From IMG/VR virus record IMGVR_UViG_3300046506_000279: a stretch of 19,198 nucleotides of DNA. One strand, 5' to 3'. The translations under genes were made by a program, and so were the position numbers. Position 1 is the first letter of the stretch. Each line of letters begins with the position of its first letter. This document shows positions 2,401-19,198 of this stretch, in pieces. The stretch is from a virus (Duplodnaviria; Heunggongvirae; Uroviricota; Caudoviricetes). The notes under the pieces were generated by a model. That model ran no database searches, was not told the origin of the DNA, and worked only from the letters and a program-made list of their open reading frames with translations.

Positions 2401-5400
2401 CGTTGTTGTAGGCGTTGGACAGGACGGTGCCGAGGTCTTGGCGCAGGTTGCCCATCAGGTCGCTTGCGCCGGGCTCGCCCGGCGGGCGTGTGACCGCCTC
2501 CTGGGCCACGCCACCACCACCGCCACCTGGCTTGCCGTTGACAATCTTGATCTGGTCGGGGCGGAACACGGCGTAGGTGATCTGGCTATGGCTGCCGCCG
2601 CGCGGCTCCTTCATCTTCAGGCCGTCGTAGCCGGCGTCCACCAGTGCCGTCTGGAAGTCGCCCTGGTCGTAGCGGAACAAATGCCATGCGGCGATGTCCT
2701 GGAACCATGGGGTCAGGTCGAATTGCTTGATCACCCGTGCCGGCAGCGTCACGCCATGGTCGGCAAAGAACTGTTTCCATCCGGCCGGGTTGCGATACGC
2801 CTTGTGCGACAGGTCGAGCGGGTGCGCCAGCGCCAGGTAGGCGGTGGTGTACTTGATGTCGCGCGCGGTCTTGGCCTCATCCCCCGGCGCGATCATGCCG
2901 ACATAGTGTTCCTGCTTGTGGAAGCGCTTGATCCACTCCTTGCTTTCGGCGAAGTAGAAATACGGGTGGGTGCCGCCATTGCCTTTGTACTCGAACTGGG
3001 TGATCGCGTCCCGGCCGCCGTGGTAGACCGGCAGCGGCGCGCCGGTGGCCGGGTCGACCACCGTCGAGGCGCCGAACCAGTCCTTGAATGCTTGGGTGTT
3101 GGTCTCCATGGGCGCCATGTTAACCTCCGGCCCCCGCTGTGCAGCACGGCTGCTGTTGACGCCCAGCAGGCTCGGGTTGGCCGGATCGAAATTACCGTTG
3201 TTGCCGGTGGCGCTCTTGATCTGCCCGGCGTCGAAGGCGATGTAGACGTCGCTGTCGATCGGGCCGTAGCTGCCGTCTTCGCGCGTCAGCTGCTCGCGCC
3301 AGTTGCGCACCAGCATGCCGTCATGGCCGGCCTGCCTGGCGCTGCGCATCGCCTCGGCCAGCGATTGGCCGTGCGGGGCGGCGGCGTCGTAGCGGGCCGG
3401 GTTGCTGATGTGCAGGTACACCGGCAGCACGTTGCCGCCGTTCAGCGCGCCGTGCTGGCCGGCATACACGCCGGCAAACTCGGGGTTGGCGGCGAAGAAG
3501 AAATCGCCTGCGGTCGGCGTGAAGCCGAGCCGGTGCAGCATGTGCTGCAGCGGCGTGCGGGTGCGACCCTTGTCGTCGCGGAAGGCGCTCACGTCGTGCA
3601 TGGTGCCGTGGTACACCACGCGCGGCGTGCCGTCCGGGTTGACCACCTTCGATAGCCCGGCCGCGTTTGCTTGCAGCAGGAACTGGCGCGTCATATCATT
3701 CAAGGTGGGTGCTGTCGGCAAGGTGTTCCGGATAGGGCCGGGAGCGCTGTTCCCGCCCTGCGGACCCGTTGAATTCGTTGAATAACCGGCAGCATCCGCC
3801 CCTTGGGCCGGGCCTGCTTGTGGCGCAGCGCGGGGCGTCCTATCATTCAATGGCGGTGCCGCAGGTGCGGGATTCCCGTTAGGGTCGGTTGTTTGGCCCT
3901 CTGGACCCGACTGTGATGAAAGCCTGTCGGCATCCGCCACCGGCATCAAGTCCATCAACTCATGGTCGTAGAACAGGCGGCCATTGGCGTCCTCGCGCAC
4001 GCCGGCGGTCACGATGAAGTCGTTGCCGGCGATCCGTACCTTGGCGGCGAATGCCAGCATGCGCTGGGCCGCGTTCTTGACGTTGGTGGCGTCGGCCACC
4101 AGCACCCCATGCTCGAGCAGGGCCGGCAAGGCCGCCAGTGCGCGGATCTTGTCGATGCCACCGCCGTGCTGCAGGGTTTCCTTGATGCCGTGCGCGCGCA
4201 CTTCGATGGCCTGGCCGGTGGCCTGGTTGGTGTAGCCGCCCACCAGCTGCGCCTGGCCCCAGGCGCGCGCTTGCTTGCGCATCGCCTGCAGCGCGGCGTG
4301 CTCGTTGCTGCGGTTGGCGCTGATTTCATCGCCCTGCAGGGTCGCGACCGGGGCGCCTTGGGTCAGCCGGGTCGCCTGCGCGGCCTGCTGCCAGTCGCCG
4401 AACCAGCGCTTGAAGGCGTGGGTGGCGATCTGCGTCAGGTTGCCGTGCAGGCTTGCATCGGTGCTGCTGCTGCCGTTGTTCTCGGCCATCAGGTCGCGCC
4501 CCACGGCCAGCACTTGGCTCAGCAGATCGTGCTGGGCCTTCCCCATCCCGAGCACGGCGCGCACGATGTCCACAAACCGGTCCCACAGGCTGCGCGGGCC
4601 GCTCTGCACTTGCTGCAGGGCGTGCTGGAAGGCGGGGTTGGCGTGGGCCTCGGCCACGAATTCGTCGAGGTTGCGCATGCCGTAGTGGCTGGCCAGTTGC
4701 CCGCTGCGCTTGGCGTCGGCGTACAGGGCTTTCATCTGCATGGCCGCTTTTCCACCTTTGCGCAGGGCGCTGGCGGTGGCGGCGTGGACGAATTCGTGCA
4801 GCAGGTTGGTGGCGGCGCCGTTGGCTTCGAACAGCACCACATGGTTGCTGGTGGGTGCATAGCCGGCGCCGTGGCCTTGGGCCGGCATGCCGGTGGCAAA
4901 AGTGTAGTCGGCGGCATTGCCGGTGCCCACCGTCGGGTTCACCTGGTTGGCCAGCAGCTGTTCGGCCAGGGCGCGCTGGAACGGGGTGGCGCTGGTGGCG
5001 GCGATCTGGTGCAGCAGGTCGGTGGCGCTCGCGCCGCTGTCGATCGCGTGGTACAGGGTCTGGTCGGTGGCGCTGGCGGTGCTGGTCGCGGCCTGGTTGA
5101 ACAGCGGCAGGCCGGCGGTGGCCTTGGTGCGCAGGGTGTCGGTCAGGGTGAAGCCGGGCTGGTCCAGCGTGGCCGTGTCCGGTGCCGCCATCCAGGCGTC
5201 GAAGTTGGCGTATTCGGTCGGGCGTCCCTTGGGTTGGGCGATACCAACCGCTTCGACCTTGCCGCCGCCAAGTTTCTTGAGCACGGCGTTGACGTTCTGC
5301 GGCACGATCTGGTCGTAGAAGGCTTTCATGCCGTCGCCGCCCACTTTCAGGCCGTCGCCTGACAACTCGCCGGTCGGCTGCGCCATGATCTTTTCGGCCA

Positions 5401-8400
5401 GTTCCTTGCCGATCACGTCGTCGAGTGATTTGCCGGCCACATCGCCCAGCGGGCCGCTGCCGCGCAGCACTTCGCCAGTCGCGTTGTCGACATACAGGGT
5501 TTGGGCGCCCTGCGCAGTCAACTCGATCCGGACGCGGGTCGTATCCTTGGCGGCGGCGGCAATGTCCCATTCAATCGCGTTGACGGATTTCGACAGGTCG
5601 TAACGCTCGGCGCTTTGCTGGCCGTTGACGAACGCCACCTTGTCGTAGCCGTGGGCGGCGGCGTAGGTGATCACGCGCTTGATCGCCAGTTGCAGCCAGC
5701 CTTCGGTGCTGGTCACGAACGGGGCCGGCACCAGGCCTTGGCTGGCGCGCTGGGTATGGCGTTCGCTCAGGTCGCGGAAGCGGTTGATGGCGTCACGTTG
5801 GTCGGCGGTGTCGACTTCCCAGCGGTCCTGCCAGTCGCCATGGCTGCGCACCGCGGCCATGGCCTGGCCTAGGCTATCGAAGCCCAGCAGGTCGTTGGCC
5901 TCAAGCGCGGCGCGGGCGGCGCTGCCGGCGGCTTCCAGTTCGGCCTGGTGGTTGACGCCGCTGGCGTCGAAGCCCAGTTTCTTGCCCTGCTGTGCCCAGT
6001 CGGACTGCATTTCCTCGATGAACAGCACGCGGTGGCCGTCGGCGTCCACGCGGTCGTTCATGCGGATGTGGGCGACGATGTTCGGTTCGGCCCAGTGGCC
6101 CGACTGGTAATTGGCGGTGTGCTTGCCCGTCGCCTTGGCGATGTCGTCGCTGTCCAGTTCCATGGCGTCGATCATGGCCAGCAGGTCGGCGCGGCTGGCA
6201 CCGTCGGTGTCGGCGTCGTCATCGTTGCGCTCGACCAGCGTGCGCAGCTGGGCGTCGCTCAGCCCCTGCACGGTCGCGGGGCCGTCCATCGGCAGGGTCA
6301 GCAGCAGTTCGCGGTAGTGCGCGCCGCCGGGCAGGGTGTAGCGGCCGTACTTGGTGGCGCCGTCATTCCCTTCCTGCGCGCCATAGGCGTCGACCTCGCG
6401 CAGCGCGGCGATGATCTCGGCCCGGCCCTGGTCGTCGAACGGTTCATCGCCGGTGATCCGCTCATATTCCGTGCGCAACTGGGCGTCGGTCATCGCCTCG
6501 TAATTGACCGGCGGCGTACCTTTTTCCACTTCCTGCACCCGCACCCCGTTCTGGTCGAGGTAGGCGGCCAGGTCATCGCGGGTCAGCTTGTCCTTGGCGC
6601 GCAGGGCCAGGTAGTCGAGGATCCCGCTCCAGTCCAGTTCGTCTTTCTTGATGCCCAGCTTGGCGGCGTTGGCGCTCAGCCAGCTGGCCCACTGGTCGGC
6701 CGGCATGGTCGCTTGCTTGGCGCTGCCGATCTGGCGCGCCAGTTCGGAGTAGTAGCCGGGGGCGGCGCGCAGGTTGCCCATCAGGGTGCCGGCATTGGCT
6801 GCCAAGGCGTCCTTGATCCGCGCGAAGTCGAGCATGTGCAGATCGCTATTGCTGAGCACGAAGGCGTTGCCGTCGCGCGCGAACGGCACGCCGGCCTGTT
6901 GCAGCCGTTCATACAGGCGCGTGCTGTCGTCGGACAAGGTGCTTTCGCTGCGGAATGACGCCTCCGGGAAGCGGGCGGCGAATTCATCCAGACCGGTCAG
7001 GAACAGCGCCGTGGCGATTCCCTTGCCACGCGGTCGCGCATCGTCGTCGCCGCGCACTACCTCCATGTCGTTGGTGATCTCGTCATCGACATGGGCGAAG
7101 CCCACGCTGATTTGGGTGGTGCCGTCGCGCCAGATGTACTGCGCTGCGTCGTGCCCGCGTTCCTGTTTGGTGAAGCCTGCGCGCAGGTTGCCCATCAGGG
7201 GCTCGCTGTCGCTGGCGTCTTCTGCCGTGCTCAGGTTGGTGATGGTGCCTTCGTGCGAATACACCTGGCGGGTGTTGCCGTCATCTTGGCGCAGCGTGAT
7301 GCGCAGGTTCCCGGCCTGCATGGTGTCGATCTGTTCGACCGTGCCCTCGATCGCAGCGCGGCCGGTGTCGGTCGGTGCGAAGCGGATGCGCTCGTCCACG
7401 GCCACCGGCGGTGGGGTGGGTTCGGCGGCGGTGGCGACGGTCGGCACCAGCCCGTCCAGAATCTCCTGGGCGGCGCGCACCGCGTTGTCGGTCAGTTGCC
7501 GCTGCCAAGCGCCGGTCGAGGGCGCCCATTTGAAGCCGGCGCTTTTCAGTTGCGCGCGGATTTCGGCGGCGGGCTTGCCGTCGAAGAATACCTGCAGGCG
7601 GTTGAGGGCGGCATTGCGCACCAGGCGCGGGCCGGTGGCTTCCACCGCGTCGCCGTTTTCCTTGGCGGCGCTGATGGCGGCCTGGGCGTCGGCGTCGTCG
7701 GCGTGGGCCTCGGCATCGGCGATGCGGCGGGTGATTTCCTCGACCCGGTCGCGCAGGCGGCGGATTTCGGCGTTGTTGTTTTGCAACTGGTAGGCGGGGA
7801 TGCCGGTGCGGCCGGCGAAGTCGGGCTTTTTCAGTGCGGCGATCTGGTCCGGCTGGTAGCCCAGCGCGGCCAGTTGCGCGTCGTCGTCCTTGCGCAGGGC
7901 GGCGTTGGTGGCCTTGTACAGTTCCTGGGTCTGCTCGCGGCCGGCCAGCTTGGCCTGGGCGTTCTTCAGTTCGGAGGCGAGCGACTGGTCGACGGCGCCG
8001 CGCAATACCCGGGTCAGGCGCTTGGCGGCCTTGTCCAGGTATTCGTTCGCTTCTTCGGCGCGGCGGTCGGCGCTCTCGCCTTTCTTGCGGTTCGATTCCA
8101 CCGGGAAGCGGGCCGGGCCGGTGATCATGCTGCTCATCACGCGGCTATGGGCGGCCAGGTAGCTGTTGGTCAGGGCCGCGTAGTGGGCGGCGGCGCTGTT
8201 GAATTCGGCCACGAAGTCGGCCTGGCGGTCTGCGGGGGCGGCGTGGTAGGCGCGCTCGAAGCGCTGCCACAATGCCATCACGTCGCGGAAGTAGCTGCGC
8301 CGCACCGAGGCGCCGCGCGCTTCCGGGCTGTGCGAGGTGCCGGCAAAGGCGCGCACGGCGGCGCCCAGCGGGATCGCACTTTCCGAAATATGCACCGGCA

Positions 8401-11400
8401 GGCTGGCGGCATAGTCGTGCATGCCGCTGTACTGGCCGTCATGGATGGCTTCGGCCAGCGGGTCGCGCAGCATGCTGCCGCGCGATTGGTCGTGCTCGTT
8501 CCAGCGCTTGCCGGTCTGTTCCTGCACGGCCGCCAGCGCGGCATCGCGCACATCCTCGTACTTGGCGAAGGGCTGGGCCTTGGCGATGGTGCGCACGATG
8601 GCGATAGGGTCGGTGGTGGCGGTTGGCTCCTGCTTCGAACGGGCGGCCACAACCGGTTTCAGGCTCGGGTAGTCCTCCAGCACGGCATCCGGTACCGGCT
8701 TGCCTTCGGCGGCGGCCATGGTGACGGCCGCTTCGTGGTGGCTGGCGGCCTGGGCGTCGAGGCGGTCAAAGTCCTTGGCGCCGCGCAGGGTCGCCAGCGG
8801 GGTCGGTTTCACGCCCAGTTGCGGGAAGTCGCGGCCGGCGCGCACGGCGTCGAGGTAGGCGGCGCGTGTCAGTTCCCAGGGTTCCTGCTCGGGCGTGGTG
8901 CCTTCCAATTCTGCTGAATTCGACGGAATAGTGGCCGCATCTTCCTTGGCCACATAGCCCTCGCGGCGCAGGTAGTCGATACCGGCGCTGGTGGCGGCTT
9001 TCTTGGCGTCGCGCAGGCCGTCGTAGCGTTCGCCGTCGTCGCCTACCTGCCACTTGCCGTTGCCAATCTTCTGCACGTTGGCAATGGTGATGCTGCCGCT
9101 GCCGTCCTGGCCGTCCTCGCTGAACATCAGGCGGTGGGTGGTCACGCCGTCGCGCTGGCCAAGGTCGCGCCAGGTCATGTGCTGCTGGGCTTGGGCGGGG
9201 GTGAGGGTGTCGGCGGCTTCGGTGGTAGCAGCGGCCGGCGCTTCGTCCTGCTGGTACTCGGCGCGCACTTCTTCCGGCACATCATCGCCGCGCGTGATCG
9301 CCTCGTTGACCAGCCGTTCGTGCTGGCCGTAGGCGTGCGAATACACGTCGTCTGCAGCCTTGGCCGGCACATTGCCGCCGCGCTTGCTGATGTAGGCGCC
9401 GGCTTGCGCTTTCGCATAGTCGTCGCGGGTCAGTTGCCACGGCTCGCGGGCATCGTTGGCGGCCGGCTGCGCCTTGATCGCTTCAGTGGCGTCCTTCAGC
9501 TGGTAAGCCTTGGTGGCGGCGTCGTGCAGCAGGTCGGCCAGCTCGAGCGGGTCGCTGGCTTCATTCATCGCCGCTTTCAGGGCGGCGTGCTGCTCGGGGG
9601 TGACGTAGCCTTCGGTGCTCAGCTGATCGAGCTCGCTCGAAGCGTCCCGGGCTTCGTCCAGCGCGGCCTTGTTCATGGCGCGGGCGGTGTCGGCCCAGCG
9701 TTCGTCGGCGCGCTTGGCGACCAGCAGCTGTTCGAAGCTGCCTTCCGTGTTGCGTTCGGCGTCCACGCGGGCGGCGTCGGCCAACAGGCGGCGCGCCACT
9801 TCGTGGTGGAACGGCGCCATGTCCTGCTTGCTCATGCCGCGGTAGGCGGCAAACGCTGGGTCGTTGTAGACCGCGTCTTCGATCGCGCGGCGGGCGCTGT
9901 CGGCGCGCTGGTAGTCGCCGTAGGCGCGGCGCTGTTCGGCTTCAGCCTGGTCGCGCGCGTAGTAGGCTTGCAGTTCGGCGTCGGATTCGGTCCAGACTTG
10001 GCGCTCGCCATCCCAGAAGCCGGGGCGGGAAGCCAGGAAGGCGGCCGGTACGCCGGTGTCTTTCGCCTTGGCGGCCACGTCTTCCGGGGATGGGTAGGCC
10101 GGGTCGAGGCGGCGCATTTCGGCCGCTTCGGGCTCGCTCAGGCCGTGGTCGCGCAGCTTGGCGCGCAGGGCGTCGAAGCGGGCGGTGTTTTGGGCGGCAG
10201 TTGGCTTGGCCGGGGCGGCGGCCGGCGTTGCTGCTGCCTGCTGCTCCACCATGCCGATCAGGTCGCTCATGCTCTTGACGTCGCGTACTACCGGGTGGGT
10301 GCCGCGGTAGTTGCCAGTGTCGGTCAGGTACCAGCCGTTCATGCCGCTGCGCACCTGCCACGGCTTGCCGTCCAGTTTGACGATATTCCCGTCTTCATAG
10401 GGGTTGGCGAAGTTGACCTTGAACGGGGCGCGCTGGGGGCCGGTCATGGGCTGCGGTTCGCTGGCGGCAGGCGTGGTGGTGCCTTGCTCGGCTTCCAAAC
10501 TGGCCATCGGCGCGCTCTGGGTGGTGCCGTTGTCGTACTTCACCATCGCCACATGGATCAGCGGGCCGCTGCCGATCATGCCCTCGATCACGCCGGTGTG
10601 GCCGGTTTTCGTGTTCTTGACGCGGTCGCCCACGTCGTGCGGCGCGTAGCCTTGCGTCAAGACACCGGCACGGTAATGCTTTTCCCGCATCGGCTTGAAG
10701 CCGTCGGGGATGGCCGGCGGTTCTGCGGCCTGCGGTGCGGCTTGCGGTGCCGCCTGCTCTGCGGTGTCGATGATCTGCTGCAGGGTATCGCGCAACGCCT
10801 TGGCGCGGCCCGCTTCGCTGATGCTGGGCTTGCGGTGGTTGACGGCGCGCTGGTCCCACAGGTGGTCGATGTCGCGTACCAGCATGTCGCCGATGTTGCG
10901 CGGCAGGCTGCTGCCGTGGATCAGGTCGACCAGGCCCATGCCGCGCTGGCGCAGGGCGTCGGCGTCGGCGCGGGTGTCCAGCGCTTCTTTGTCCTGGATG
11001 TCGTGCAGCAGGATGGCGGCGGTGCGGCCCACCAGGGTGCGCTCGAGGGGCTTGGGTTCGGCGGCCGGGGCGGGTGCCGGTGCGGCCGGCTTGGCCGGTG
11101 CCTTGGTCTTGGCCTCGTCGGCGTACCAGTTCTTCAGCCAGGCGATCGCAGCGTCGAACGGGATGCCGGGCGCCGAGCGCGCGCCGCCGCTGGCGGCAAC
11201 CCGGTAGGTATCCTTGGCGCGGTCGTACCAGTACAACTCGGTCCCGGTGTTGCTGCCGGGCGAATGAATGATCAGGGGGTTGCCGCTCTTGAGGGTGTCG
11301 TTGGTGCCGCGCACGGTGAAGCCGGCGGCCTCCAGCTTGCCCACCGGCGTATCGGCCCGTGCGGCACGCTCGGCCGCTTCCTGTTCGTCCAGTGCGCGGC

Positions 11401-14400
11401 GCTTGTCGGCGGCCCGGCGCGCGCTGATGTCGGCCTGGTCGGCAAAGGCCTGGTCCGATTGCTCGGCGGCGGCCAGCCATGCGGTCTCCAGCGCGGCCTC
11501 GTCGGGTGCGGTGGCGGCCATCTTGTGGATGGCGTTGGCGAGCGTGTCTTTGCTGGCCGTGTCGAGCTTGCTGCGGGCCACGTTGATGGCGGCAGCCGCG
11601 CTGGTGGCGCCGCCGTTGCCGATCGCCAGCCCGCTCTGGTGCTCGATGACCAGCCACGGGTTTTTCTTGGCGCCGTGGCGGCGGCCCACGTAGGCGCGCA
11701 CGCCGTGCGGCAGGTCGGTCACGTCGCGCACGTCGGTGTACAGGTTGGGGGTGCCGTCCTTGTCGTTCTGGGTGAAGCGGAACGGCTTGCCGATTTGCTG
11801 GGCCAGCGCGTGTGCGGCCACCTGCTCGCCCTGTTCGAGCATGTCGTGGATCGCGGTTTCCGGGCTGGTACCCAGCCGGATCGTGCTCTTTTGCGGGCGC
11901 GGGCGGCCCTTGAAGCCTTCGGTGGCCATGACCTGGTCGCGGAAGCGGGTCAGGTTGTCCTTGTTGTTGGCGACCGTGAATTTGCCATCGCCGGGCACGT
12001 CGAAGGTGATGAAGTGGGCGGCTTTGCGGGCGGCCATGGCACGCTGCTCGGCGGCCCTGACCTTGGCGCGGGCAGCGTCGCGCTGGCTGGGGCTGCTGGC
12101 CTTGTTCACCGCTTCGCGCGCGTCCTCGAGCGCCCGTGCGGCCGCGTGCAGCTCGGTGTCCTCGGCGTTGGTGGTGGTGTCGGCACCGGCGGTCAGGATC
12201 GCGGCGTTGATCTTCTGGATCAGGTCGGCGCGCGCTTCCTCGTTGTTCATGATCGTGTGGTCGGCCGCCTTCTTCAGCGAAGCGGTGATCACGGTGGGGG
12301 TGGCGGGTTCGGTGTGGCCGGCCTCGATGTGCTCGGCCGCCAGGGCCGGCTGCGGCGCGGCCGGGACTGCCTGCTCGGCCTTGGTAGTCTGGCCAGGCGT
12401 GCCAAAGTGCTCGCGCACCAGATCCTGGTCTGCCAGCGCCTGCAGCCCGGCCTCGACATCATCCGGGTGCTCGGCCTTGATGGTGGCGCGCATGGCTTCC
12501 ACGCTTTGTTTGTTGCCGGCCAGCTCCATCGCGGCGTACATGGCGCGCACCTGGTCGTCGGAAAGGGCGTCCACCTTGGCGTCGTTGATCTTCCCGCGCG
12601 CCTCGAGGGCGGCGTAGGCGGGGCTGCCTTCGAGGTGGACCGGGCTGTCGGCCGGCGCGGCGGGGGCCACTTCTGGCACTGGCCGGGCTTCCTCGATCAG
12701 GCCATACGAGCGCATCGCGTCGACCACTTCCACCGGGCGCAGGAAGTCCATGCGGCCGTTGGCCTTGCGCGCGGCGATGGCCTTGGCGGCGTCGATGATG
12801 CCGTCGGTGGTGGTCTTGCTGATGCCCAGGTCGGTCAGGCCGGCGCGGATCTTGGCCAGCTGCTTGCGGTAGTCGCTGTCGGAATACAGCTTCCCGAACG
12901 GCACCGCTTTGCTGACCAGCGCGCTGATGGTGCCGGCAGGGTACTGCTTGGCGGCAGTGCCCGGCTTTTTGAAAAGCTCCGCCGCTTTCTTGCTGTCGCT
13001 GCCGTTCGGCTGGCGCGCCTTGGGCGCTTCCACCTGCGGCGCGGTCTGGCGGCCCGGCGGCTTACCGGCAGCCAGCGTCCCGTAATCGTTGGGCATCACG
13101 GCAAAGCCGGCCCCGCTCTCGGCGCGCACCACCAGGCGGCCATTGTCGGAAATCGACTCGACAGTGCCATTGGCGTGGTTGCCGTTTTGGTTCGAATAGA
13201 TACCGCTGGCGAAATGCACCTGGTCGCCGACCTTGAACGGCGCTTGCGGCGGCGTGGCTGGTGCCGGCACTTCTGCGGCGGCCTCGGCTTTCTTCCAACG
13301 GCCGTCCCATTTCATGCTCGACGTTTCACGCAGGCGACCGTTGCTGGATACCGTCATTTGGCCGTCGATCTTGACGTGCGGTGCGCCGCCGCGCTGGACG
13401 ATCGTGCCGGTATAGGTCGCGCCGCCAAGGAACGCGGACGGCACGAACGTCTGCACCTTGTCGCCGATCGCCAGGCCAGCCTCTTTCATCTTGGCCAGCA
13501 GTGCCGCGTCGGTGCCGGCTTTTTCGGCCTTGTAAATCTCTTGCAGCGTCGGGTAGACGCTCTTGTATTCGTCGGTGGCGTGGTACTTCTGCAGCGGCAT
13601 GTTCAGCTGCTTGGCGCGCGCGCTGACCCAGTCCATGGCGTCGGCGTAGGTTTCAAACGATGGTGCGGCCTGCGATGCGGCGCCGATGCCAAGGCGCTCG
13701 TTGAGCGTGCCGGGGCGGTGCTCGGTGCTGGTGATGCCGCTTACGCCGAACGCATCGAAGGCGCTGCGCGAGTCGACCTCATTCGCCACTTCGCGGGCGC
13801 GGGCCACCATCGCCTCGGCTTGTTCCTTGGTGTCGAACGGGCCAGCTAGGCGTGCCACGCGGCTATCGCGCAGCATGGTGACGTAAAACTTCTGCTCGCC
13901 CTCGGGTGCCGGCACTTCTGCGGCCGGTGCCGGGGGTGGGGCGTCTACAGCCGCTGGTTCTTCTGCCGCAATGGGTGGCTTCCCGACAAGCGCCTCGATG
14001 TGCGTCTGTCCGTTGCGCTTGGCCACCTGGAGTCGATGCCAACCGTCGATGATCGTAACGCGGCCATCGCTTTGCAGTTCGTAGATTGGGCGCGATACGG
14101 TTTCGGCATCGCGGATGGCTTTCAGGCGCTCATCAAGCTGTTCGGGCTCGGGCGCTTCATCCTGGGCAATGATGCTACCGACCGGCACCCGCGCGATGCG
14201 CCAATCCCAGTCTTGGGCCTCGTCAGCCTCCAGCATGTAGATGGCGTCGTCGCTTGCCGCGAACGGGTCGGTTTTGCTGCCTTCGGCAAACCACGAAGGC
14301 ACTTCGCCCGCCCGTTGCCCAGCCTGCAGCCCGCGCCGCGCGATTTCGTCGGCAATCGGCTTGGCGCGCTTGGGCAGTTCTTGCTGGGCGCGCAGCAGCT

Positions 14401-17400
14401 GGGCGTCGGTCATGGCCTTGATCGACAGGCGGTTTAGCTGCTGGGTGGTCAGGTCGTGCTCGGTCAGCGCTTCCGGGTCGACCGTTTCGGCGTCCTGCGC
14501 GCGGCGCTCCAGTTCGCTCAGCTCGCGGCCCGGTTCGGCGCGCTGGTCGTCGCGCACGATGCGCGGGCGCGGGCGGCCATCGGCCATGTCCGACTGCATG
14601 ATGTGGTGCAGGGCGTCGTTGCGCGGGCGGTTCTCGGTAATCAGCGCGCGCAGGCGGTTGGCGTCGGCCGACACGTTGCCGTCGTAGCCGGATGCCAGGA
14701 TCGCGTCCAGCCGCGGCTGCAGGCGTTCGTCGGAGGCGGCGCCCAGGATATGCACGCCGTGGATGTTGTCGCCGTACTGGCGCAGCAGGTCGGTCAGTTC
14801 GGCGTCGGACACGCCTTCCACCGCCGACGGGATGCCGATGATCGGCGCGATGTCGCCGGCCGGGTCCAGGCCCAGGTGGCGCATCATCTGCTCATACGCG
14901 GCGGTCAGGCTCAAGGGGCCGCCCTGCAGCGGCACGATCGCCTGCAGGCCGAAGCCGTTGATCTGCTCGGCGTACTTTTCCACCAGGGCCAGCGAGGCGG
15001 TCTGGTCGGTCACGACGTCGGGCATGACCAGGAACATGCGCCCCATCGCCATGCCGGCGCTGGCCTTGCTCAGTTCGCGCTCGATCTCCTCGTAGCGGTC
15101 AAACAGCGCGTCCGGGTCCAGTTGCGCGGGGGCGGCCGCTTCTCTCTGTTCCTTCTCCGCCGCTTCCGCTTCGCGCTGGTTGCGGCCGTGGATGGTGTAG
15201 GCGCCGGAATCGACGAACAGGTAGGTGCCCTCGGTGTCGGCCAGTTGTTGGGCGATCTTGGGGGTCGAGACTTTCGACAGTTCCAGCACCGAAATGCCGA
15301 CGTTTTTACCGTTGGCAAACATGCGGGTGAAGTCGCCCGGTGCCGACATGCCTGACAGGAAGCGCAGCGGCTGCTCCGGGGTGCCGTACACGCCCGGCTT
15401 GAATTCGCCGTCGATGTCGACCGGGTTGCCGGCGTTGGCGACGGTGGCGGCCAGGCGGCGCTGGGCTTCGAGCTCGGCGGCCGGGTGCGACTCTGGGATC
15501 ACCAGTTCGTGCGCGACGTTGTTGGTCTTGGCCTGCGCGTCCAGCGCGCGCAGGTACTCGCCCAGCTGGCCGCGCTGGACCCCGATGAAGCCCTCGGTGC
15601 CGCTCGGCTCGATGCCGGGCGCGACGAAGCCGGCCTTCTGCAACTGCTGCACGTAGGCGGCGGCCACCTCGCGGTAATCGCTGGGGGCGGCGATGAACAC
15701 GCTGCTGAAGTTCTTGTGGGCGAAGTCGGCCAGGTCCACGCCCTCGGCCAGCAGCGCGGCGCGGCGCTCGGGCGTCATCGCCTGTTCGTAGTTCTCGATC
15801 GGCTTGTCGGCATGGATCAGGCCATGCTTGGCCGAAATCACGTACACGTCGGGCCGCGCGCGCGGGTCTTCCGGCATCCATTTGCGCAGCATTTCAAACA
15901 TGCTGCCCTGGTACAGGTCGGCCGCCTTGTGGATGCCGGCCAGCTTGCGGTCGGAACAGGCGATCAGCAGCAGCGGGCGGGCGTCGGTGGGGTCGTAGGC
16001 GTGGATCTGCTGCTGGGTGGCGGCGGGCGCCACGGCGCTGGCGGCGCGCGCGGCGCGGCGCGCCTCGATCTCCCTGGCCACCGGTTCGGCGCGCTTGGGC
16101 AGTTCGCGCTGGGCGCGCTGCAATTGCGCGTCGGTCATGGCCTTGATCGACAGGCGGTTTAGCTCTTGCGTGGTCAGTTCGCGCGCGCGCTCGGGCAGGG
16201 CGCCGATGGCAGCATCGCTGGCGCGGTCTGCCGCGTCGGCTTGGGACAGGGCGGTGCGCGCTTCCTCGGCCGAACCGTAGTCTTTGCCGGCGCGTTCGTC
16301 GCGCCATACGACGGCGTGCTGGCGGTTCAGGGTCGGGGTGGCGGTGCGCGCGCCGACGGTAACGGGTTCCTTGGCGGCCAGCAGGGTGTCGCGCTGGCGT
16401 TTGCCGTCCAGCCAACCGGCTTCCCATGCTTCGCGCTCGGCTTTCTTGCGCACGTCCGACGGCGGGTGCATCGCATAGCCGTCCAGGGCGGCAGTCTGCC
16501 CGCGCTTTACCAGCGCCGGGTCGTGGTTGGTCTGGGCCTGGCTGCCGGCTGCATCGCGCGTCGGTTCTCCTGTTGGTGCAGGCGTTCCATTCTCGGCAGG
16601 CGGGGTGGGCGCAGCCGGGGCGGTCGTTTCGAGCGGGTGGACGTAGGCCAGCACCTGCTCGGCGCTCAGGGCGGCAACGGCATCCTCGCTGTCGGTGCCG
16701 TCGTGGTAGTCGGCAATGGCGTGGTAGGCGGCCTTCCATTGGCGGGCTGAAATGTCGTTGGCGAACGGGGCCAGTTTCGGGTTGGCGCGCATGCCTTTGC
16801 CGGCGGCGCCCATGGCGGCGGCAAACGAGCGAAAGCCCTTGCGTACCAGCAGTTCAATCACTTTGGACAGGGCCGGCAGCAGGTCGCCAGCGGTGTAGAG
16901 CTGGCCGCGGGCGTTCAGTTTGGCGCCGGACATATCACCCAGCACGTCGCCCAGGTGGCCCCAGGCGTCGGCCAGTTCGGCGTCGAGCGGGTCGGTTTCT
17001 GCGGCGGGCTCGGCCTTTGGCGCAGTGTCCGGCGTAACGGCGGGCGCGCTTGGCGCGGATTTGGCTTCGTTTGGCGCATTCGGCGCGGCGGGCGCGGACT
17101 GCTGGTATGGCGAAGCGAATTCAGGCGCGCTTTTACTTGGCGTCGGCATGTCGTCGTTCATCTTGACGTTCCATGCCAATTTCGCATCAGCTACCGGGAT
17201 GCCCAATTTGGCGGCGGCAGCTTTGAAGTCGTCGGTGCCGGGGCGCATCAGGCTGGCACTGTGCGGCATTGCAAAGGCGACGGCGTCGCCCAGTTTGCTC
17301 CATGCGCTGCGGCGGGCGCCCGGCGTTTCCGTGGGGGCTGCCGCTGCGTCCGGGGCCGTGTCCTTCGGCATGCCGAAAATCTTGTTGCCGCGGCCGATCG

Positions 17401-19198
17401 CGCCGGCTTGCTGCAGGGCGTCCTTGATCTGCTGCGGGGTGGCGTGGTCCGGTACCGTGACGTCGGCGCCGGTGTTGAAGTCCTGGGCGGCGTACTTGCC
17501 GATGTGGACCACGCCGTTCTGGACGGTGATCGGTTCGGCGCTGTTGGGCAGCTTGCCGAGCGACAGCGTGGCGGGGGCGGCGGGCAGTTCGGGCAGCGGG
17601 AAGCCGGCGCCTTGCCACTTCGCCAGCTGGCCTTCGGTCGGCGCGGTCGGCATGCCTTCGTCGGCCAGGTTGTTGCTGCCGTCCAGCTTGTAGTAGTTGG
17701 CGATCAGGCTCAGCGGGTCGCCGGCCAGCATGCGGCCGCGCTTGATCGTTACCAGGTGGATCGCCGACAGGCTCTTGCCGGTGCTGGTGACTTTCTTCTG
17801 GTTGGCCAGGAAATGCTGGGTCACGCCGTTGTGCTCGACCGTGATCGGGTGCCACGATCCCAGCGTCGCGTGCGGCAGTGCCTCGAATGCGGCGCGGATC
17901 TTTTGCGCGGCCGTCGCCGGGCTGGCGGCGGCTGGTGCCACTTCTGCCGCTTTGTCGGCGGTCTGGGTCGCGCCATCGGCCACTTCGGCACTGGGGAATT
18001 CGTGCGCCAGCGGGATCAGGTCGCGGATCGGGGCAGCGAAGCGGATCACCCGGATCGGGTCGTTGTCTTCCAGCCTGGCCAGCCACTGGTGGTGGCCGTC
18101 GAGGACGTGGTTGTCGCTCGAGACCAGGATGGCGCGGTCGCCGCCTTCATGGGCCTTGGCCTGTTCGACCTTGGCGTGGGAAAATTCCTGCTGGGTCGGG
18201 TGCAGGGTGCTGGGCAGCACTTCTTCCTGCTGGTGCGGGACGCCGCGCGCGGCCAGGAAGTTGACCAGGGCGCCGCGGTGCTCGGCTTTAACCTGCGGCA
18301 TGTCGGCGCGCGGGATGGCCAAGGTGCCGGAATCGGGGGCGAAGGCGGTCCAGTCGCGGTCGATCTGGTGGCCGGCCAGCTCGGTGACGGGGTCGGCGGC
18401 GGTTGGGGCGGCGGCCGGCTGCGCGCGGATACCCGGGATCTTGCGCGGGACTTGCAGGTTCCCGGCGAAGGTATCGCTGAACTTCGACGTGGGCGTTTCA
18501 AGCAGCAGGGTGAACGTCCCATCGCCATTGTCGGTGACTTGTACCACCCGGGCCGGCCTGCCTTGTGGCGTGATCCAGTCGCCTGCCTTGAGTTGCGCAA
18601 CGGTGGTTTTTTCGGTGCCGATGAAGCTCACGCCAAGCGGCAGGCCGAAGGCGTTGCGTTCCACCTTCTCGGCGGCCGGTGCGTCTTCGGCTAGTGCCGG
18701 CTGGGCGTCAGCGGCCGTACTTGCAGCAGATACATCAGGTCCAGCGCCTGGTGCAGGTGCGGCGGGAACGGCTGCTCGGTTTTCGCCAGCTGCTTGATCA
18801 GCTTGGCGTCGGCCTTGCTCACCAGCTTGGACTGGCGCAGCAGGCGCAGCGCTTCCCAGGCCGTCATTTCGTTGTCCAGCATCAGCGGCATGTCCTGCAT
18901 GGGCGGCTCCGGTGGCGGTGGGGGGGGCTTTGCGGCCGTTCTTGACGAAGGCCTTGAAGGCGGTCATCAGCGGTTCGCGCTGGCCGGCCGGTACCTTGGC
19001 CTTGTTCAGTTCTTTCCAGAAGTCGGTGCCGTTTTTCGAGCGCTGGGCGGCGGCCAGCAGCTCGGGCGGCAGGGCGGGGGCGGGCGCGGCGGCTGTGGGC
19101 GCGGCGGCCTTGCGCTCGGGTACCGCGTCGACCAGTTCGTTGGGGGCGGCAAACACCGGTTCGTTGAAGGCCTGCGCGGCGGCGCCGTGGCGCTCGAC
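2..19198 (-). CDS. Giant PLxRFG-domain polyvalent protein (>=6,399 aa, partial at both ends); probable phage/MGE internal-virion or ejected anti-defence protein
   Basis: Manual translation of the minus frame whose codons start at positions =1 mod 3 shows no stop from 19198 (VERHGAAAQAFNEP...) to 2 (...FAKRAFTASGKALGGN). Third codon positions are mostly G/C. Contains YAPLMRFGKY (PLMRFG at 1526-1543) and a long series of motifs typical of polyvalent proteins. Confidence 0.96.
2540..3105 (-). other. ADP-ribosyltransferase domain 2 (ART-PolyVal-like)
   Basis: AFKDWFGASTVVDPATGAPLPVYHGG (YHGG 3014-3025), YFYFAES, AYLALAHPLD, AGYDGL, YAVFRPDQIK. Confidence 0.8.
3160..3655 (-). other. ADP-ribosyltransferase domain 1 core (ART-PolyVal-like); its N-terminal FKRWFGDW motif lies at 4391-4414
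   Basis: SKVVNPDGTPRVVYHGT (YHGT 3602-3613), DFFFAANPEFAGVYA, GNVLPVYLHISNP, AGHDGMLVRN, VYIAFDAGQIKSATGNNGNFDPANP. Confidence 0.88.
3671..3699 (+). promoter_or_regulatory. Putative antisense sigma70-like promoter P-A
   Basis: TTGCAG (3671-3676), 17-nt spacer, TATCAT (3694-3699; 5/6 match to TATAAT). Lies directly upstream of hairpin RNA A. Confidence 0.55.
3704..3800 (+). ncRNA. Putative structured antisense RNA A (~97 nt)
   Basis: GGTGGGTGCTGTCGG (3704-3718) pairs with CCGGCAGCATCCGCC (3786-3800) as an uninterrupted 15-bp stem with 3 G-U pairs. G-U pairs favour the + strand. Internal hairpin AGGGC...GCCCT at 3734-3759. Paralogous to RNA B. Confidence 0.55.
3818..3846 (+). promoter_or_regulatory. 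Putative antisense sigma70-like promoter P-B
   Basis: TTGTGG (3818-3823), 17-nt spacer, TATCAT (3841-3846). Same geometry as P-A, 147 nt downstream. Confidence 0.55.
3852..3938 (+). ncRNA. Putative structured antisense RNA B (~87 nt)
   Basis: GGCGGTGCCGCAGG (3852-3865) pairs with CCTGTCGGCATCCGCC (3923-3938): 14 bp with two single-nt bulges. Internal hairpin AGGGTCGG-TTGT-TTGGCCCT at 3881-3900, at the same offset from the -10 box as in RNA A. Confidence 0.55.
3955..4290 (-). other. LPD3/PBECR-like (barnase/RelE-type nuclease-fold) domain inserted in ART domain 1
   Basis: YTNQATGQAIEVRAHGIKETLQH...ALAALPALLEHG...FAAKVRIAGNDFIVTAGVREDANGRLFYDHEL, a pattern I recognise from LPD3-type domains. 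Confidence 0.65.
4540..5060 (-). other. Zincin-like metallopeptidase (MPTase) domain
   Basis: LLHEFVHAAT (HExxH, 4784-4798), YGMRNLDEFVAEAHANPAFQ (third-ligand Glu motif, 4646-4666), SLWDRFVDIVRAVLG. Confidence 0.88.
5100..6760 (-). other. Conserved uncharacterised phage virion-protein domain ('EEMQSDW' domain)
   Basis: YYSELARQI, GIKKDELDWSG, TKYGRYTLPGGAHYRELLLTLP, SGHWAEPNIVAHIRMNDR, LFIEEMQSDWAQQG (5996-6016), PAPFVTSTEGWLQLAIKR, GYDKVAFVNG, VIGKELAEKI, GGDGMKAFYDQIVP, QPGFTLT...GLPLF. Confidence 0.7.
6790..7175 (-). other. GNAT-family acetyltransferase domain
   Basis: Motif A RGKGIATALF (RGKGIA 7013-7030) and downstream STLSDDSTRLYERL. Confidence 0.72.
7450..8370 (-). other. Plasmid/ICE-type region resembling parts of DUF3560-containing proteins
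   Basis: GTSHSPEARG, HSRVMSSMITGPARFP, PDFAGRTGIPAYQLQNNNAEIRRLRDR, NRLQVFFDGKP...LKSAGFKWAPSTGAWQRQLT. Confidence 0.55.
13982..14210 (-). other. ParB/Srx-like domain 2
   Basis: RPIYELQSDGRVTIIDGWHRLQVAKRNGQTHIEALV (DGWHR 14033-14047). Confidence 0.75.
14335..14452 (-). repeat. Direct repeat copy 2 (C-terminal flank of DUF6884/TGT cassette)
   Basis: Encodes LTTQQLNRLSIKAMTDAQLLRAQQELPKRAKPIADEI. 37-nt exact identity (14403-14439) with 16128-16164. Confidence 0.92.
14600..15370 (-). other. tRNA-guanine transglycosylase (TGT)/DpdA-like TIM-barrel domain
   Basis: Ordered TGT-type motifs: FVDSGAY (15197-15217), MPDVV (15011-15025), IVPLQG (14921-14938), GVHILG (14741-14758), VSADAN (SAD 14663-14671). 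Confidence 0.72.
15542..15979 (-). other. DUF6884-like (YaaA-related) domain
   Basis: LLLIACSDRK...AADLYQGSMF...VYVISAKHGLI...IENYEQAMT...FIAAPSDY...GFIGVQRGQLGEYL. Confidence 0.75.
16060..16177 (-). repeat. Direct repeat copy 1 (N-terminal flank of DUF6884/TGT cassette)
   Basis: Encodes LTTQELNRLSIKAMTDAQLQRAQRELPKRAEPVAREI. 37-nt exact identity with 14403-14439. Confidence 0.92.
16397..16519 (-). other. Rmf/CrpP-like Trp-Gly motif
   Basis: LVKRGQTAALDGYAMHPPSDVRKKAEREAWEAGWLDGKR resembles the Rmf pattern RGxxAxxxG-xn-P-xn-RxxWxxGW. Confidence 0.45.
17995..18345 (-). other. ParB/Srx-like domain 1
   Basis: IPRADMPQVKAEHRGALVNFL...LHPTQQEFSHAKV...DRAILVSSDNHVLDGHHQWLA (DGHHQW 18083-18100). 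Confidence 0.8.
18691..18900 (-). CDS. Nested overprinted 69-aa hypothetical protein (MQDMPLMLDNEM...LTPSRH) in a different frame inside the giant CDS
   Basis: 63/69 codons end in G/C, versus about 23/70 in the host frame over the same interval. GGAG Shine-Dalgarno (18907-18910) lies 6 nt before the ATG, and the ORF ends in TAG. The host frame here becomes a low-complexity A/G/Q/P linker. Confidence 0.7.
   Translation of the reverse strand: MQDMPLMLDNEMTAWEALRLLRQSKLVSKADAKLIKQLAKTEQPFPPHLHQALDLMYLLQVRPLTPSRH

What the first reader, a model, noticed from the sequence alone, without database searches (positions are those of the whole stretch)
14600..15979. DUF6884 plus TGT/DpdA-like base-exchange module embedded in a putative ejected protein
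All the canonical transglycosylase motifs appear in order (DSG, PD, QG, HxxG, SxD), directly after a DUF6884-like domain. TGT and DpdA enzymes swap guanine for 7-deazaguanine bases in tRNA or DNA, and phage DpdA-dependent DNA modification protects against restriction (established). They are usually standalone genes in modification operons. As a domain of a delivered polyvalent protein, this one could modify incoming DNA on entry, alter host tRNA, or excise modified guanines. The CxCxxC...H zinc motif of canonical TGT is not seen after the SAD motif, which suggests a divergent clade. I do not recall this architecture being described.
Basis: partly seen in the sequence, partly recalled or inferred. 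Interest (0 to 1): 0.85.

Follow-up and report, generated by a model that had tools for sequence, protein, structure and literature searches.

The report
DpdA-like DNA base-swapper in giant phage protein
One stretch of a 7,371-residue multi-enzyme phage protein holds a small, uncatalogued relative of the enzymes that swap guanine in DNA for 7-deazaguanine, next to a DpdC/YaaA-like domain; this suggests, untested, that the phage carries a DNA-marking tool against host restriction.

Summary
The window lies inside one minus-strand ORF of 7,371 aa in a complete 94.7-kb phage genome. Residues 1068-1231 are a DUF6884 domain (Pfam E 1.3e-13, with the CxxxK and ISAKHG motifs). Their model best matches YaaA.

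Residues 1274-1539 fold as a confident eight-stranded TIM barrel (pLDDT 92). No Pfam, NCBIfam, PADLOC or PDB sequence search names it. It nevertheless belongs to a large family: 345 representative clusters, about half of the top 150 inside proteins of 1,000 aa or more.

This family is related to phage DpdA1, the validated CAjan/9g enzymes. hhalign gives 94% (E 1.4e-7), and 30 of 64 members hit phrog_887. It is also related to DpdA4/DUF6610 (78%). All 30 best Swiss-Prot fold matches are tRNA-guanine transglycosylases.

The three active-site Asp are invariant in 139 homologues. There is no zinc site, but the DpdA1 and DpdA4 alignments lack one too.

No preQ0 synthesis genes were found in this genome. 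None of 50 related viral records has QueC or QueD, so any 7-deazaguanine would have to come from the host.

DUF6884 adjacency is rare (4 of about 90), and a 130-nt direct repeat brackets the cassette.

Earlier agents of this scan reported the same kind of module on other DNA. I found no paper describing it. Activity, substrate and virion delivery are untested.

The parts
2..19198 (-). Window part (6,399 aa) of one 7,371-aa polyvalent protein gene (genome 53564-75679, minus strand)
   Evidence: The frame is open through the whole window. The full ORF has GC3 0.87. ART-PolyVal scores E 5e-32 and LPD3 E 4e-17. The genome is a complete phage with terminal repeats, an SU10-type portal and a capsid gene.
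16058..16187 (-). Upstream copy of a 130-nt direct repeat (linker peptide, aa 1005-1047)
   Evidence: the repeat finder gives 82% identity to the copy at 14333-14462, with an in-frame spacing of 1725 nt. The peptides are TTQELNRLSIKAMTDAQL and TTQQLNRLSIKAMTDAQL.
15506..15997 (-). DUF6884 domain (aa 1068-1231), YaaA/DpdC-like fold
   Evidence: PF21818 E 1.3e-13 and phrog_5935 E 2e-20. PADLOC gives PDC-M57A E 1.2e-11 and DpdC E 1e-3. The model has pLDDT 79.6; its best PDB match is YaaA 5caj (Z 7.9, rmsd 3.4, 144 aligned), and rank 3 scores 5.6.
15944..15958 (-). CxxxK motif of DUF6884 (C1081...K1085)
   Evidence: Both residues are invariant in the four barrel-associated DUF6884 domains. The motif is named in the Pfam paper PMC11701544.
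15821..15835 (-). SAKHG motif of DUF6884 (S1122-G1126)
   Evidence: S, K and H are invariant in alignment A6. It corresponds to the LSAxxG motif of PMC11701544.
15380..15505 (-). Linker between the two domains (aa 1232-1273)
   Evidence: It has low pLDDT at the start of the barrel model and at the end of the DUF6884 model.
14582..15379 (-). Zinc-less DpdA/TGT-like TIM barrel (aa 1274-1539)
   Evidence: The model has pLDDT 92 and eight beta/alpha units. hhalign gives 94% to DpdA1 and 78% to DpdA4/DUF6610. Fold matches are aTGT Z 13.5, DpdA Z 13.0, Cap10 Z 13.0 and bTGT Z 12.6. All top 30 Swiss-Prot fold matches are TGT.
15209..15211 (-). D1330 of VDSGAY: predicted general acid/base
   Evidence: It is conserved in 139 of 139 homologues. 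hhalign aligns it with the D of FLDSGAF in DpdA1 and with D89 of E. coli TGT. The role is taken from DpdA D95.
15017..15019 (-). D1394 of MPDVV: predicted reader of the guanine Watson-Crick edge
   Evidence: It is conserved in 139 of 139 homologues. It aligns with the invariant D105 of LDGIGD in DpdA1 and with D190 of DpdA4. The role is taken from DpdA D130.
14924..14926 (-). Q1425 of PLQGG: predicted second base-reading residue
   Evidence: It is Q in 125 and H in 5 of 139 homologues. It aligns with H132 of DpdA1 and H225 of DpdA4. DpdA uses H181.
14663..14665 (-). D1512 of VSADAN: predicted nucleophile
   Evidence: It is conserved in 139 of 139 homologues. It aligns with the invariant D287 of DpdA4 and sits at the end of strand 8. 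Equivalence to DpdA D256 is inferred from its position.
14333..14462 (-). Downstream copy of the 130-nt direct repeat (aa 1580-1622)
   Evidence: The closest relative P0003 has only this copy, after its barrel.

Best explanation
Residues 1068-1539 of a giant polyvalent phage protein form a two-enzyme cassette.

The barrel (aa 1274-1539) is a minimal, zinc-less member of the TGT/DpdA superfamily with a complete active site. By analogy with DpdA, it would flip a guanine out of double-stranded DNA. D1394 and Q1425 would read the base between Y1334 and L1485. D1512 would displace it, forming a covalent enzyme-DNA intermediate. D1330 would help a free 7-deazaguanine base take its place.

Neither this phage nor its relatives encode the synthesis pathway, so the incoming base would be host-made preQ0 or preQ1.

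The DUF6884 domain (aa 1068-1231) is a YaaA/DpdC-like DNA-binding domain. It may process the inserted base, as DpdC turns preQ0-DNA into ADG-DNA.

The outcome would be phage DNA marked against restriction. Marking could occur before packaging. If the protein is packed and injected like other polyvalent proteins, it could occur on entry.

Shown here: the fold, the homology, the intact catalytic residues and the lack of synthesis genes. Inferred: DNA as substrate, the identity of the base, the role of DUF6884 and delivery in the virion.
For: Homology of the barrel:
- hhalign of the family against a DpdA1 alignment that includes the validated CAjan and 9g enzymes gives 94%, E 1.4e-7. It pairs DSGAF with DSGAF, PDVVGDQ with LDGIGD, VPLQ with LPCFH and VHiLGA with KVHGFG.
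- Thirty of 64 family members hit phrog_887 (best E 8.6e-8), while noise families get 1-2 members. phrog_887 is the DpdA of 9g, CAjan, 7-11 and Rosebush.
- Thirteen of 64 members hit DUF6610, which is DpdA4. hhalign to a DUF6610 alignment gives 78%, E 1.9e-5.

Fold of the barrel:
- The model has pLDDT 92.
- aTGT, DpdA, Cap10 and bTGT are four of the top five PDB clusters.
- All top 30 Swiss-Prot models are TGT.

Active site: D1330, D1394 and D1512 are invariant in 139 homologues. They match the three Asp that are invariant and essential in DpdA and TGT.

Precedents:
- Phage DpdA alone put preQ0 into plasmid DNA in E. coli.
- The largest group of DpdA phages (76) encode no synthesis genes and may use host preQ0.

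DUF6884:
- It is distantly related to YaaA, PF03883, and DpdC is a PF03883 protein.
- Three of the four barrel-adjacent DUF6884 domains weakly hit DpdC models, and apart from PDC-M57A no other PADLOC family.
- The model best matches YaaA.
- Two-domain barrel+DUF6884 proteins exist (P0082, the Cupriavidus plasmid protein). Their DUF6884 is 47% identical to this one.

Context: ART-PolyVal and LPD3 lie in the same ORF. Standalone homologues sit beside Mom, DNA methylases and relaxase-proximal SprT-like genes.
Against: - No 7-deazaguanine synthesis gene was found in this complete genome. QueC and QueD are above threshold in 0 of 50 related viral records, 34 of them at least 90% complete. About half of the known DpdA phages do carry the pathway.
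- Singleton DpdA phages that were tested had no modification (Orion) or only traces (7-11).
- The window's own domain hits neither phrog_887 nor DUF6610 directly.
- Fold scores tie with class II aldolases (Z 13.2 against 13.5). Foldseek TM-scores are only 0.45-0.5.
- The D1512-to-nucleophile equivalence is not covered by the DpdA1 alignment.
- DUF6884 adjacency is rare. It occurs in 4 of about 90 multidomain homologues and in none of 86 fetched loci. The closest relative lacks it. In polyvalent proteins neighbours are often shuffled.
- The DpdC link rests on E-values near 1e-3, and PF03883 does not match in this genome.
- Bacterial DpdA needs the ATPase DpdB. No DpdB match was found.
Confidence: 0.5

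Rival explanations
1. The barrel is a TGT-fold enzyme that removes or exchanges guanine-type bases without inserting a 7-deazaguanine. It could act as a DNA glycosylase on host or phage DNA, or install a different, unknown base. DUF6884 would then handle the resulting lesion or abasic site.
For: No synthesis genes occur in this genome or in 50 related viral records. A DUF6884 protein (YfjM) was reported among proteins that bind abasic and RNA-base lesions. The loop after strand 6 (GIPS) differs from the Gly-rich loop that reads the 7-substituent in TGT and DpdA.
Against: The full TGT-type set of base-reading and catalytic residues is kept. No member of the superfamily cited here is a simple glycosylase. 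Neighbours of standalone homologues are DNA-modification genes such as Mom and methylases.
Confidence: 0.2
2. DUF6884 and the barrel are two independent effectors that merely lie side by side. The cassette was assembled by recombination at the repeated linker, and there is no DpdC-like finishing step.
For: They are adjacent in only 4 of about 90 multidomain homologues. The closest relative P0003 (68% identical barrel) has the barrel and one linker copy but no DUF6884. A 130-nt repeat brackets the cassette. The neighbours of the barrel elsewhere are varied: InPase 10, ART 4, methylases.
Against: Proteins made of only these two domains exist, in both orders. Their DUF6884 is 47% identical to this one. 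Earlier agents of this scan noted DUF6884::TGT-like fusions in defence islands, but these notes are unchecked.
Confidence: 0.35
3. The barrel acts on host tRNA like a canonical TGT and changes position-34 queuosine status, altering translation.
For: All the best Swiss-Prot fold matches are tRNA enzymes.
Against: It lacks the zinc subdomain and the insertions that bind the anticodon stem-loop in TGTs. The nearest sequence relatives are DNA-acting viral DpdA enzymes.
Confidence: 0.07
4. The barrel modifies a protein, like CBASS Cap10, which attaches a 7-deazaguanine derivative to a CD-NTase.
For: Cap10 (9ntn) scores Z 13.0, equal to DpdA. A PP-loop PAPS-reductase-like gene occurs in this genome and in 12 of 50 related records, loosely recalling the QueC-like partner of Cap10 (the Cap9 partner is from my own knowledge).
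Against: There is no sequence-level link to Cap10, since no PADLOC model was hit. Sequence links go to DpdA1 and DpdA4. The PAPS-reductase co-occurrence is modest and no baseline was measured.
Confidence: 0.04

Closest known systems
Phage DpdA1 (Escherichia phages CAjan and 9g; phrog_887)
   Same: It shares the small TIM barrel without a zinc subdomain and nearly the same DSGAF and DxxGD motifs. It also shares an H-x-(F/L)-G strand 7 and an Asp after strand 8. hhalign gives 94%. DpdA1 acts on DNA and works without DpdB in E. coli.
   Different: The window's domain does not itself reach phrog_887. It has a helical insert of about 55 residues between strands 3 and 4. It has Gln where DpdA1 has His. 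It is embedded in giant proteins and is never seen with preQ0 genes.
DpdA4 / DUF6610 (Halovirus HVTV-1 gp69, PF20314)
   Same: The C-terminal half aligns: PD/GD, VP(Q/H), HxLG and VSxDxN. hhalign gives 78%, E 1.9e-5. Thirteen of 64 relatives hit PF20314 weakly. Neither has a conserved Cys.
   Different: DpdA4 sits beside FolE, QueC, QueD, QueE-like and QueF genes in HVTV-1. It is restricted to archaeal viruses according to PMC10516641. The N-terminal halves do not align.
Bacterial DpdA with DpdB and DpdC (Salmonella Montevideo Dpd system; PDB 7ui4)
   Same: The fold matches (Z 13.0, rmsd 4.1, 224 aligned). Counterparts exist for D95/F99, D130, H181, L236 and D256. A DpdC-like (YaaA-fold) domain lies next to it.
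   Different: There is no CxCx2Cx22H zinc site and there are no DpdA insertions. No DpdB match was found. There are no restriction genes, and the cassette is on a phage, not in a host defence island.
tRNA-guanine transglycosylases (bacterial TGT, archaeal ArcTGT)
   Same: They are the best fold matches: 1iq8 at Z 13.5 and all top 30 Swiss-Prot hits. The DSG motif aligns with D89 of E. coli TGT.
   Different: PF01702 gives no match. It lacks the zinc site, the N-terminal lid and the tRNA-binding domains, and it is about 100 residues shorter.
Polyvalent proteins carrying DNA-modifying enzymes, such as phage P1 DarB (Iyer et al. 2017, PMC5512222)
   Same: It is a giant multi-enzyme protein with ART-PolyVal and LPD3 domains. 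DNA-modifying modules in such proteins are thought to protect the incoming DNA.
   Different: That survey does not use the words TGT, barrel, glycosylase or deazaguanine. Here the modifying module would exchange a base rather than add a methyl group.
YaaA / DUF328 (PF03883) and DUF6884 (PF21818)
   Same: The upstream domain is a bona fide DUF6884 with the CxxxK and SAxxG motifs. Its model best matches YaaA 5caj (Z 7.9).
   Different: PF03883 itself does not match. The function of DUF6884 is unknown, and the link to DpdC is remote (E about 1e-3).

Membership tests
TGT/DpdA superfamily | (beta/alpha)8 TIM barrel that matches TGT/DpdA structures best | tested here: met
   The model has pLDDT 92 and eight beta/alpha units. 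Matches are 1iq8 Z 13.5, 7ui4 Z 13.0, 9ntn Z 13.0 and 3unt Z 12.6, but class II aldolase 3pm6 ties at Z 13.2. All top 30 Swiss-Prot fold matches are TGT.
TGT/DpdA superfamily | Detectable sequence or profile homology to validated members | tested here: met
   hhalign to DpdA1 gives 94%, E 1.4e-7. Thirty of 64 relatives hit phrog_887, which is DpdA1. The window's own domain gives no direct HMMER hit to PF01702, NCBIfam or PADLOC DpdA.
TGT/DpdA superfamily | General acid/base Asp in a DSG motif, plus an Asp that reads the Watson-Crick edge | tested here: met
   D1330 and D1394 are invariant in 139 homologues. They align to the invariant D63 and D105 of DpdA1. D1330 also aligns to D89 of E. coli TGT.
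TGT/DpdA superfamily | Nucleophile Asp after strand 8 | tested here: inconclusive
   D1512 is invariant, sits at the end of strand 8 and aligns to the invariant D287 of DpdA4. The alignment to DpdA1 stops before it. No residue-level superposition on DpdA D256 was available.
TGT and bacterial DpdA proper | Structural zinc site CxCx2Cx22H | tested here: not met
   No Cys is among the invariant or >=90% conserved columns of A1. The site is conserved in bacterial DpdA and the TGTs. The DpdA1 and DpdA4 alignments also lack it.
Viral DpdA systems | Linked 7-deazaguanine synthesis genes (FolE, QueD, QueE, QueC) | tested here: not met
   None was found in the complete genome. QueC and QueD are above threshold in 0 of 50 related viral records. 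The feature is not strictly defining: 76 known DpdA phages are singletons.
TGT/DpdA superfamily | Guanine / 7-deazaguanine base-exchange activity | not testable with these tools
   It needs a biochemical assay or nucleoside LC-MS.
DpdA1 (phrog_887) | Match to the family profile | tested here: not met
   The window's domain has no phrog_887 hit at E <= 0.1. The own-genome search found nothing at E <= 10.
DpdA4 / DUF6610 (PF20314) | Match to the Pfam profile | tested here: not met
   There is no Pfam hit at E <= 10 for the window's domain. Only 13 of 64 relatives hit weakly.
DUF6884 (PF21818) | Profile match above the gathering score, plus the CxxxK and LSAxxG motifs | tested here: met
   It scores 51.7 bits against a cut-off of 30. 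C1081/K1085 and ISAKHG are present and conserved.
DpdC / YaaA (DUF328, PF03883) | Match to the family profile | tested here: not met
   PF03883 gave no match in the genome at E <= 10. Only weak PADLOC DpdC hits were found (E 1e-3 to 0.06). At the fold level YaaA is the best match (Z 7.9).
Polyvalent proteins (Iyer et al. 2017) | Many effector domains in one giant protein of a phage or conjugative element, including signature domains | tested here: met
   The ORF is 7,371 aa and holds ART-PolyVal, LPD3, DUF6884 and the DpdA-like barrel. It lies in a phage genome.
Polyvalent proteins (Iyer et al. 2017) | Packaged in the virion and delivered with the DNA | not testable with these tools
   No MuF domain was found. 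Virion proteomics is needed.

The most novel reading that the evidence does not exclude
The cassette is a self-contained DpdA-plus-DpdC-like writer that is delivered in the virion. On entry it would use the host's own preQ0 pool to put a host-type 7-deazaguanine mark (dPreQ0 or dADG) on the incoming genome. This would counterfeit the self-mark of Dpd-type or other restriction systems. It would be the first base-exchange counterpart of the injected DarB methylase. It would also define a sixth, very large DpdA subfamily that lives mostly inside polyvalent proteins of phages and plasmids.
Probability: 0.25. Interest if true: 0.8.

Novelty: new variant of a known kind. Interest (0 to 1): 0.6.

Why it matters
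DpdA enzymes are treated as the signature of 7-deazaguanine DNA, and five subfamilies are described (PMC10516641). This work points to a further large clade: 345 representative clusters at 50% identity. Pfam, NCBIfam, PADLOC and BLAST against 50,697 GenBank phage records all miss it.

The clade sits mainly inside giant polyvalent proteins of uncultured phages and in the leading regions of plasmids. It is never found with the synthesis genes.

If it is active, 7-deazaguanine marking would be more widespread among mobile elements than gene-cluster searches suggest, and it would depend on host precursors. Base exchange would also join methylation among the anti-restriction chemistries built into polyvalent proteins.

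The family also links DpdA1 and DpdA4, which did not align with each other in my comparison. That helps to order the superfamily.

Tried and rejected
Barrel, direct sequence searches:
- Pfam, NCBIfam, PADLOC and PDB (phmmer, and a profile of 64 sequences) gave nothing meaningful.
- PF01702 and phrog_887 did not match in the own genome.
- tblastn found nothing in 50,697 GenBank phage records. DNA searches of the flanks found no related phage or plasmid.
- E. coli TGT by tblastn reached only bacterial-type TGTs, not DpdA.
- hhalign against single sequences was too weak to use. The CAjan homologue search returned only proteins about 70% identical, so the DpdA1 profile is shallow.

Scans and look-ups that failed:
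The single-protein scan then found no relative. The A5 scan found only 7 loci at about 30% identity, in Microvirga, Azohydromonas and Noviherbaspirillum, so the host stays unknown.
- One accession recalled from memory was wrong: NC_021328 is HGTV-1.

Other domains:
- The ParB-like motifs at aa 367 and 1716 match neither PF02195 nor PADLOC DpdB. I do not call them ParB or DpdB.
- MuF (PF04233) and YaaA (PF03883) gave no match in the genome.
- The weak QueC hit is the PP-loop of a PAPS-reductase-like protein, not QueC.
- My four-sequence DUF6884 HMM found no DUF6884 within 3-6 kb of the barrel in 86 fetched loci. This HMM is weak.

Literature: searches for AF0587/2q07 and for DpdC with YaaA gave nothing useful.

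Not attempted: a complex prediction, a phylogeny, and read mapping. The record is a metagenomic virus.
Full report
**Where the finding lies**

The 19,198-base window is open in one minus-strand frame from end to end. In the full record the frame is a single gene of 7,371 codons (genome 53564-75679) with GC3 of 0.87.

The record is a 94,661-bp virus genome with direct terminal repeats, rated complete. It has an SU10-type portal, a capsid protein and a beta-helix fibre.

The giant protein carries ART-PolyVal (E 5e-32) and LPD3 (E 4e-17). It is therefore a polyvalent protein in the sense of Iyer et al. 2017 (PMC5512222). The finding's coordinates, 14600-15979, are residues 1074-1533.

Residues 1077-1183 match Pfam DUF6884 above its cut-off (E 1.3e-13). 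They carry the two motifs the Pfam authors describe: C1081-x3-K1085 and I-S-A-K-H-G.

They are the conserved core of a real family. A search of 1.84 billion representatives found 345 proteins at E <= 1e-3 and 119 at E <= 1e-10. In 139 near full-length copies D1330, D1394, P1457, H1483, G1486 and D1512 never vary.

The AlphaFold model built on 64 homologues is confident (pLDDT 92, pTM 0.90). It has eight strand-helix units, with a two-helix insert of about 55 residues after strand 3.

**What the barrel is**

Direct searches with the window's own sequence name nothing. Pfam, NCBIfam, PADLOC and PDB sequences were all blank. That blank means little, because homologues of the validated CAjan DpdA also carry no precomputed Pfam domain.

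Evidence from the family as a whole is clear:
- Thirty of 64 members hit phrog_887 (best E 8.6e-8) and 13 hit DUF6610. Background families are hit by one or two members.
- phrog_887 is the DpdA of phages 9g (E 2.5e-100), CAjan (2.3e-98), 7-11 and Rosebush. CAjan loses its dPreQ0 when dpdA is deleted.
- DUF6610 is the DpdA4 subfamily.

Profile-profile comparison supports this. Against a DpdA1 alignment it gives 94%, E 1.4e-7, pairing DSGAF with DSGAF, PDVVGDQ with LDGIGD, VPLQ with LPCFH and VHiLGA with KVHGFG. Against a DUF6610 alignment it gives 78%, E 1.9e-5, pairing HxLG and VSxDxN. My DpdA1 and DpdA4 alignments do not align with each other, so this family bridges them.

Fold searches agree, with a caveat:
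- Archaeal TGT (Z 13.5), DpdA 7ui4 (13.0), Cap10 (13.0) and bacterial TGT (12.6) are four of the five best PDB clusters. A class II aldolase ties at 13.2.
- Foldseek puts Z. mobilis TGT first at TM of only 0.45-0.48.
- All 30 best matches among 550,129 Swiss-Prot models are TGTs.

**Active site**

The DpdA structure paper assigns four roles. D95 is the acid/base, D130 and H181 read the Watson-Crick edge of guanine, F99 and L236 sandwich the base, and D256 is the nucleophile. All three Asp are invariant in DpdA and the TGTs.

The counterparts here are D1330, Y1334 (Phe in 119 of 139), D1394, Q1425, L1485 and D1512. The first five rest on alignments. D1512 rests on its position at the end of strand 8 and on alignment to the invariant D287 of DpdA4.

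My DpdA1 and DpdA4 alignments have no conserved Cys either. The lack of zinc therefore groups this domain with the small viral enzymes rather than marking it as odd.

**Where the incoming base would come from**

QueC, QueD, FolE and radical-SAM profiles find nothing in this complete genome. The only weak QueC signal is the PP-loop of a PAPS-reductase-like protein.

Among 50 viral records that carry the barrel, 34 of them at least 90% complete, none has QueC or QueD above threshold. Any 7-deazaguanine must therefore be host-made.

There is precedent for this. The largest group of DpdA phages (76) are singletons thought to use host preQ0, and 9g DpdA alone put preQ0 into plasmid DNA in E. coli. 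However, the two singleton phages that were tested carried no modification or only traces. This is the main reason I hold the functional reading at about one half.

**The DUF6884 neighbour**

DUF6884 is distantly related to YaaA (PF03883) and is thought to bind DNA and flip a base. DpdC, which converts preQ0-DNA to ADG-DNA, is a PF03883 protein.

- The window's domain and two of the three other barrel-adjacent DUF6884 domains hit PADLOC DpdC models weakly (E 1e-3 to 0.06). Besides PDC-M57A they hit nothing else.
- The model (pLDDT 79.6, shallow alignment) matches YaaA best (Z 7.9), with AF0587 at 7.8 and the next hit at 5.6.
- PF03883 itself does not match.

The pairing is rare. It occurs in 4 of about 90 multidomain homologues and in none of 86 fetched loci. 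The closest relative (68% identical barrel) lacks DUF6884.

A 130-nt direct repeat of 82% identity, in frame, brackets the cassette. The relative has only the downstream copy. This points to insertion or loss by recombination at the linker.

Some evidence argues against pure chance. Proteins made of just these two domains exist. The DUF6884 of one of them, on a Cupriavidus plasmid, is 47% identical to this one, although the barrels are only about 35% identical.

**Context of the family**

Of the best 150 representatives, 49 are at least 2,000 aa long and 20 are 1,000-2,000 aa. Within 300 residues of the barrel the commonest Pfam neighbours are InPase (10), ART-PolyVal (4), DUF6884 (4) and DNA methylases.

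Standalone copies lie in three kinds of place:
- between a Mom-family gene and a helicase plus a C5 methylase;
- next to a relaxase and a SprT-like gene on a Cupriavidus plasmid;
- on Pseudomonas megaplasmids.

These are the early-entry, anti-restriction neighbourhoods described for polyvalent proteins.

**Comparison and novelty**

The polyvalent-protein survey never mentions TGT, barrels, glycosylases or deazaguanine. Three papers that hold the words polyvalent protein, transglycosylase and deazaguanine do not describe this architecture. The DpdA papers do not mention polyvalent proteins.

Earlier agents of this scan reported DpdA-like modules in polyvalent proteins, and DUF6884::TGT-like fusions in defence islands, on other DNA. 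Those are unchecked AI notes. I did not count them as evidence, but this finding is a repeat within the scan.

I class it as a new variant of a known kind: a further, zinc-less DpdA-type clade in an undescribed architectural setting.

**Limits**

- No activity, substrate or virion delivery was tested.
- The DpdA1 and DpdA4 profiles are shallow.
- The fold scores are not far above those of other TIM barrels.
- The host is unknown. Only seven distant loci were found in bacterial genomes.

Noticed in passing
window 14333-14462 and 16058-16187: A 130-nt in-frame direct repeat (82% identity, spacing 1725 nt) brackets the DUF6884/DpdA-like cassette. The closest relative has only the downstream copy and no DUF6884. 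This suggests cassette gain or loss by recombination at a repeated linker.
   Followed up: partly
genome G000:25730-26812 (L002:6733-7812, minus strand); related records G002, G011, G014, G019 and others: A PAPS-reductase-like PP-loop protein is encoded in this phage. PF01507 is above cut-off in 12 of 50 barrel-carrying viral records, sometimes inside frames of 1,200-1,900 aa. It also lies near standalone barrels in L010 and on a Pseudomonas megaplasmid (L012). No baseline frequency was measured.
   Followed up: partly
homologues P0003-P0151, flanks of the barrel (alignment A4): The polyvalent-type InPase domain (PF18823) lies within 300 residues of the barrel in 10 of about 90 multidomain homologues. 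It is the commonest Pfam neighbour, and this is unexplained.
   Followed up: no
alignments A1, A2, A3: The new family aligns to DpdA1 through its N-terminal half and to DpdA4/DUF6610 through its C-terminal half. My DpdA1 and DpdA4 alignments do not align with each other (hhalign probability 0).
   Followed up: partly
proteins P0190-P0194: These are DUF6610 (DpdA4-type) domains fused to GNAT acetyltransferase domains. They recall the GNAT-TGT pairs described for BREX-related systems in PMC12839542.
   Followed up: no
barrel model mf44cd4fae013 (window 14582-15379): ESM Atlas shape neighbours include a cluster named 'T4 beta protein family' (TM 0.70) and a mostly viral cluster whose members carry PF26345 ScoMcrA_N (TM 0.74). 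No sequence link to either was seen.
   Followed up: no
DUF6884 model mdad473175d36 (window 15506-15997): The second-best PDB match, tied with YaaA, is the uncharacterised archaeal protein AF0587 (2q07, Z 7.8, residues 252-394). I found no paper on it.
   Followed up: partly
window about 18100 (aa 367) and 14053 (aa 1716): Two DGxHR-type 'ParB-like' motifs flank the region. One follows the cassette directly. Neither Pfam ParB_N (own-genome search) nor PADLOC DpdB models match them, so the ParB or DpdB-like reading is unverified.
   Followed up: partly
locus L010:7067-15928: A standalone barrel gene lies between a Mom-family gene and a gene for an AAA_34/Helicase_C_4 protein, followed by a C5 DNA methylase. 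ParB-like and PAPS-reductase-like genes lie upstream. This is a dense DNA-modification and anti-restriction neighbourhood on a ParA-bearing element.
   Followed up: no
window 15197-15199 (Y1334) and about 15008-15010 (T1397): The window's copy has Tyr where 119 of 139 homologues have the 'gate' Phe. It has Thr where 132 of 139 have Gly in the DVVGDQ motif. These are minor departures from the family consensus.
   Followed up: no
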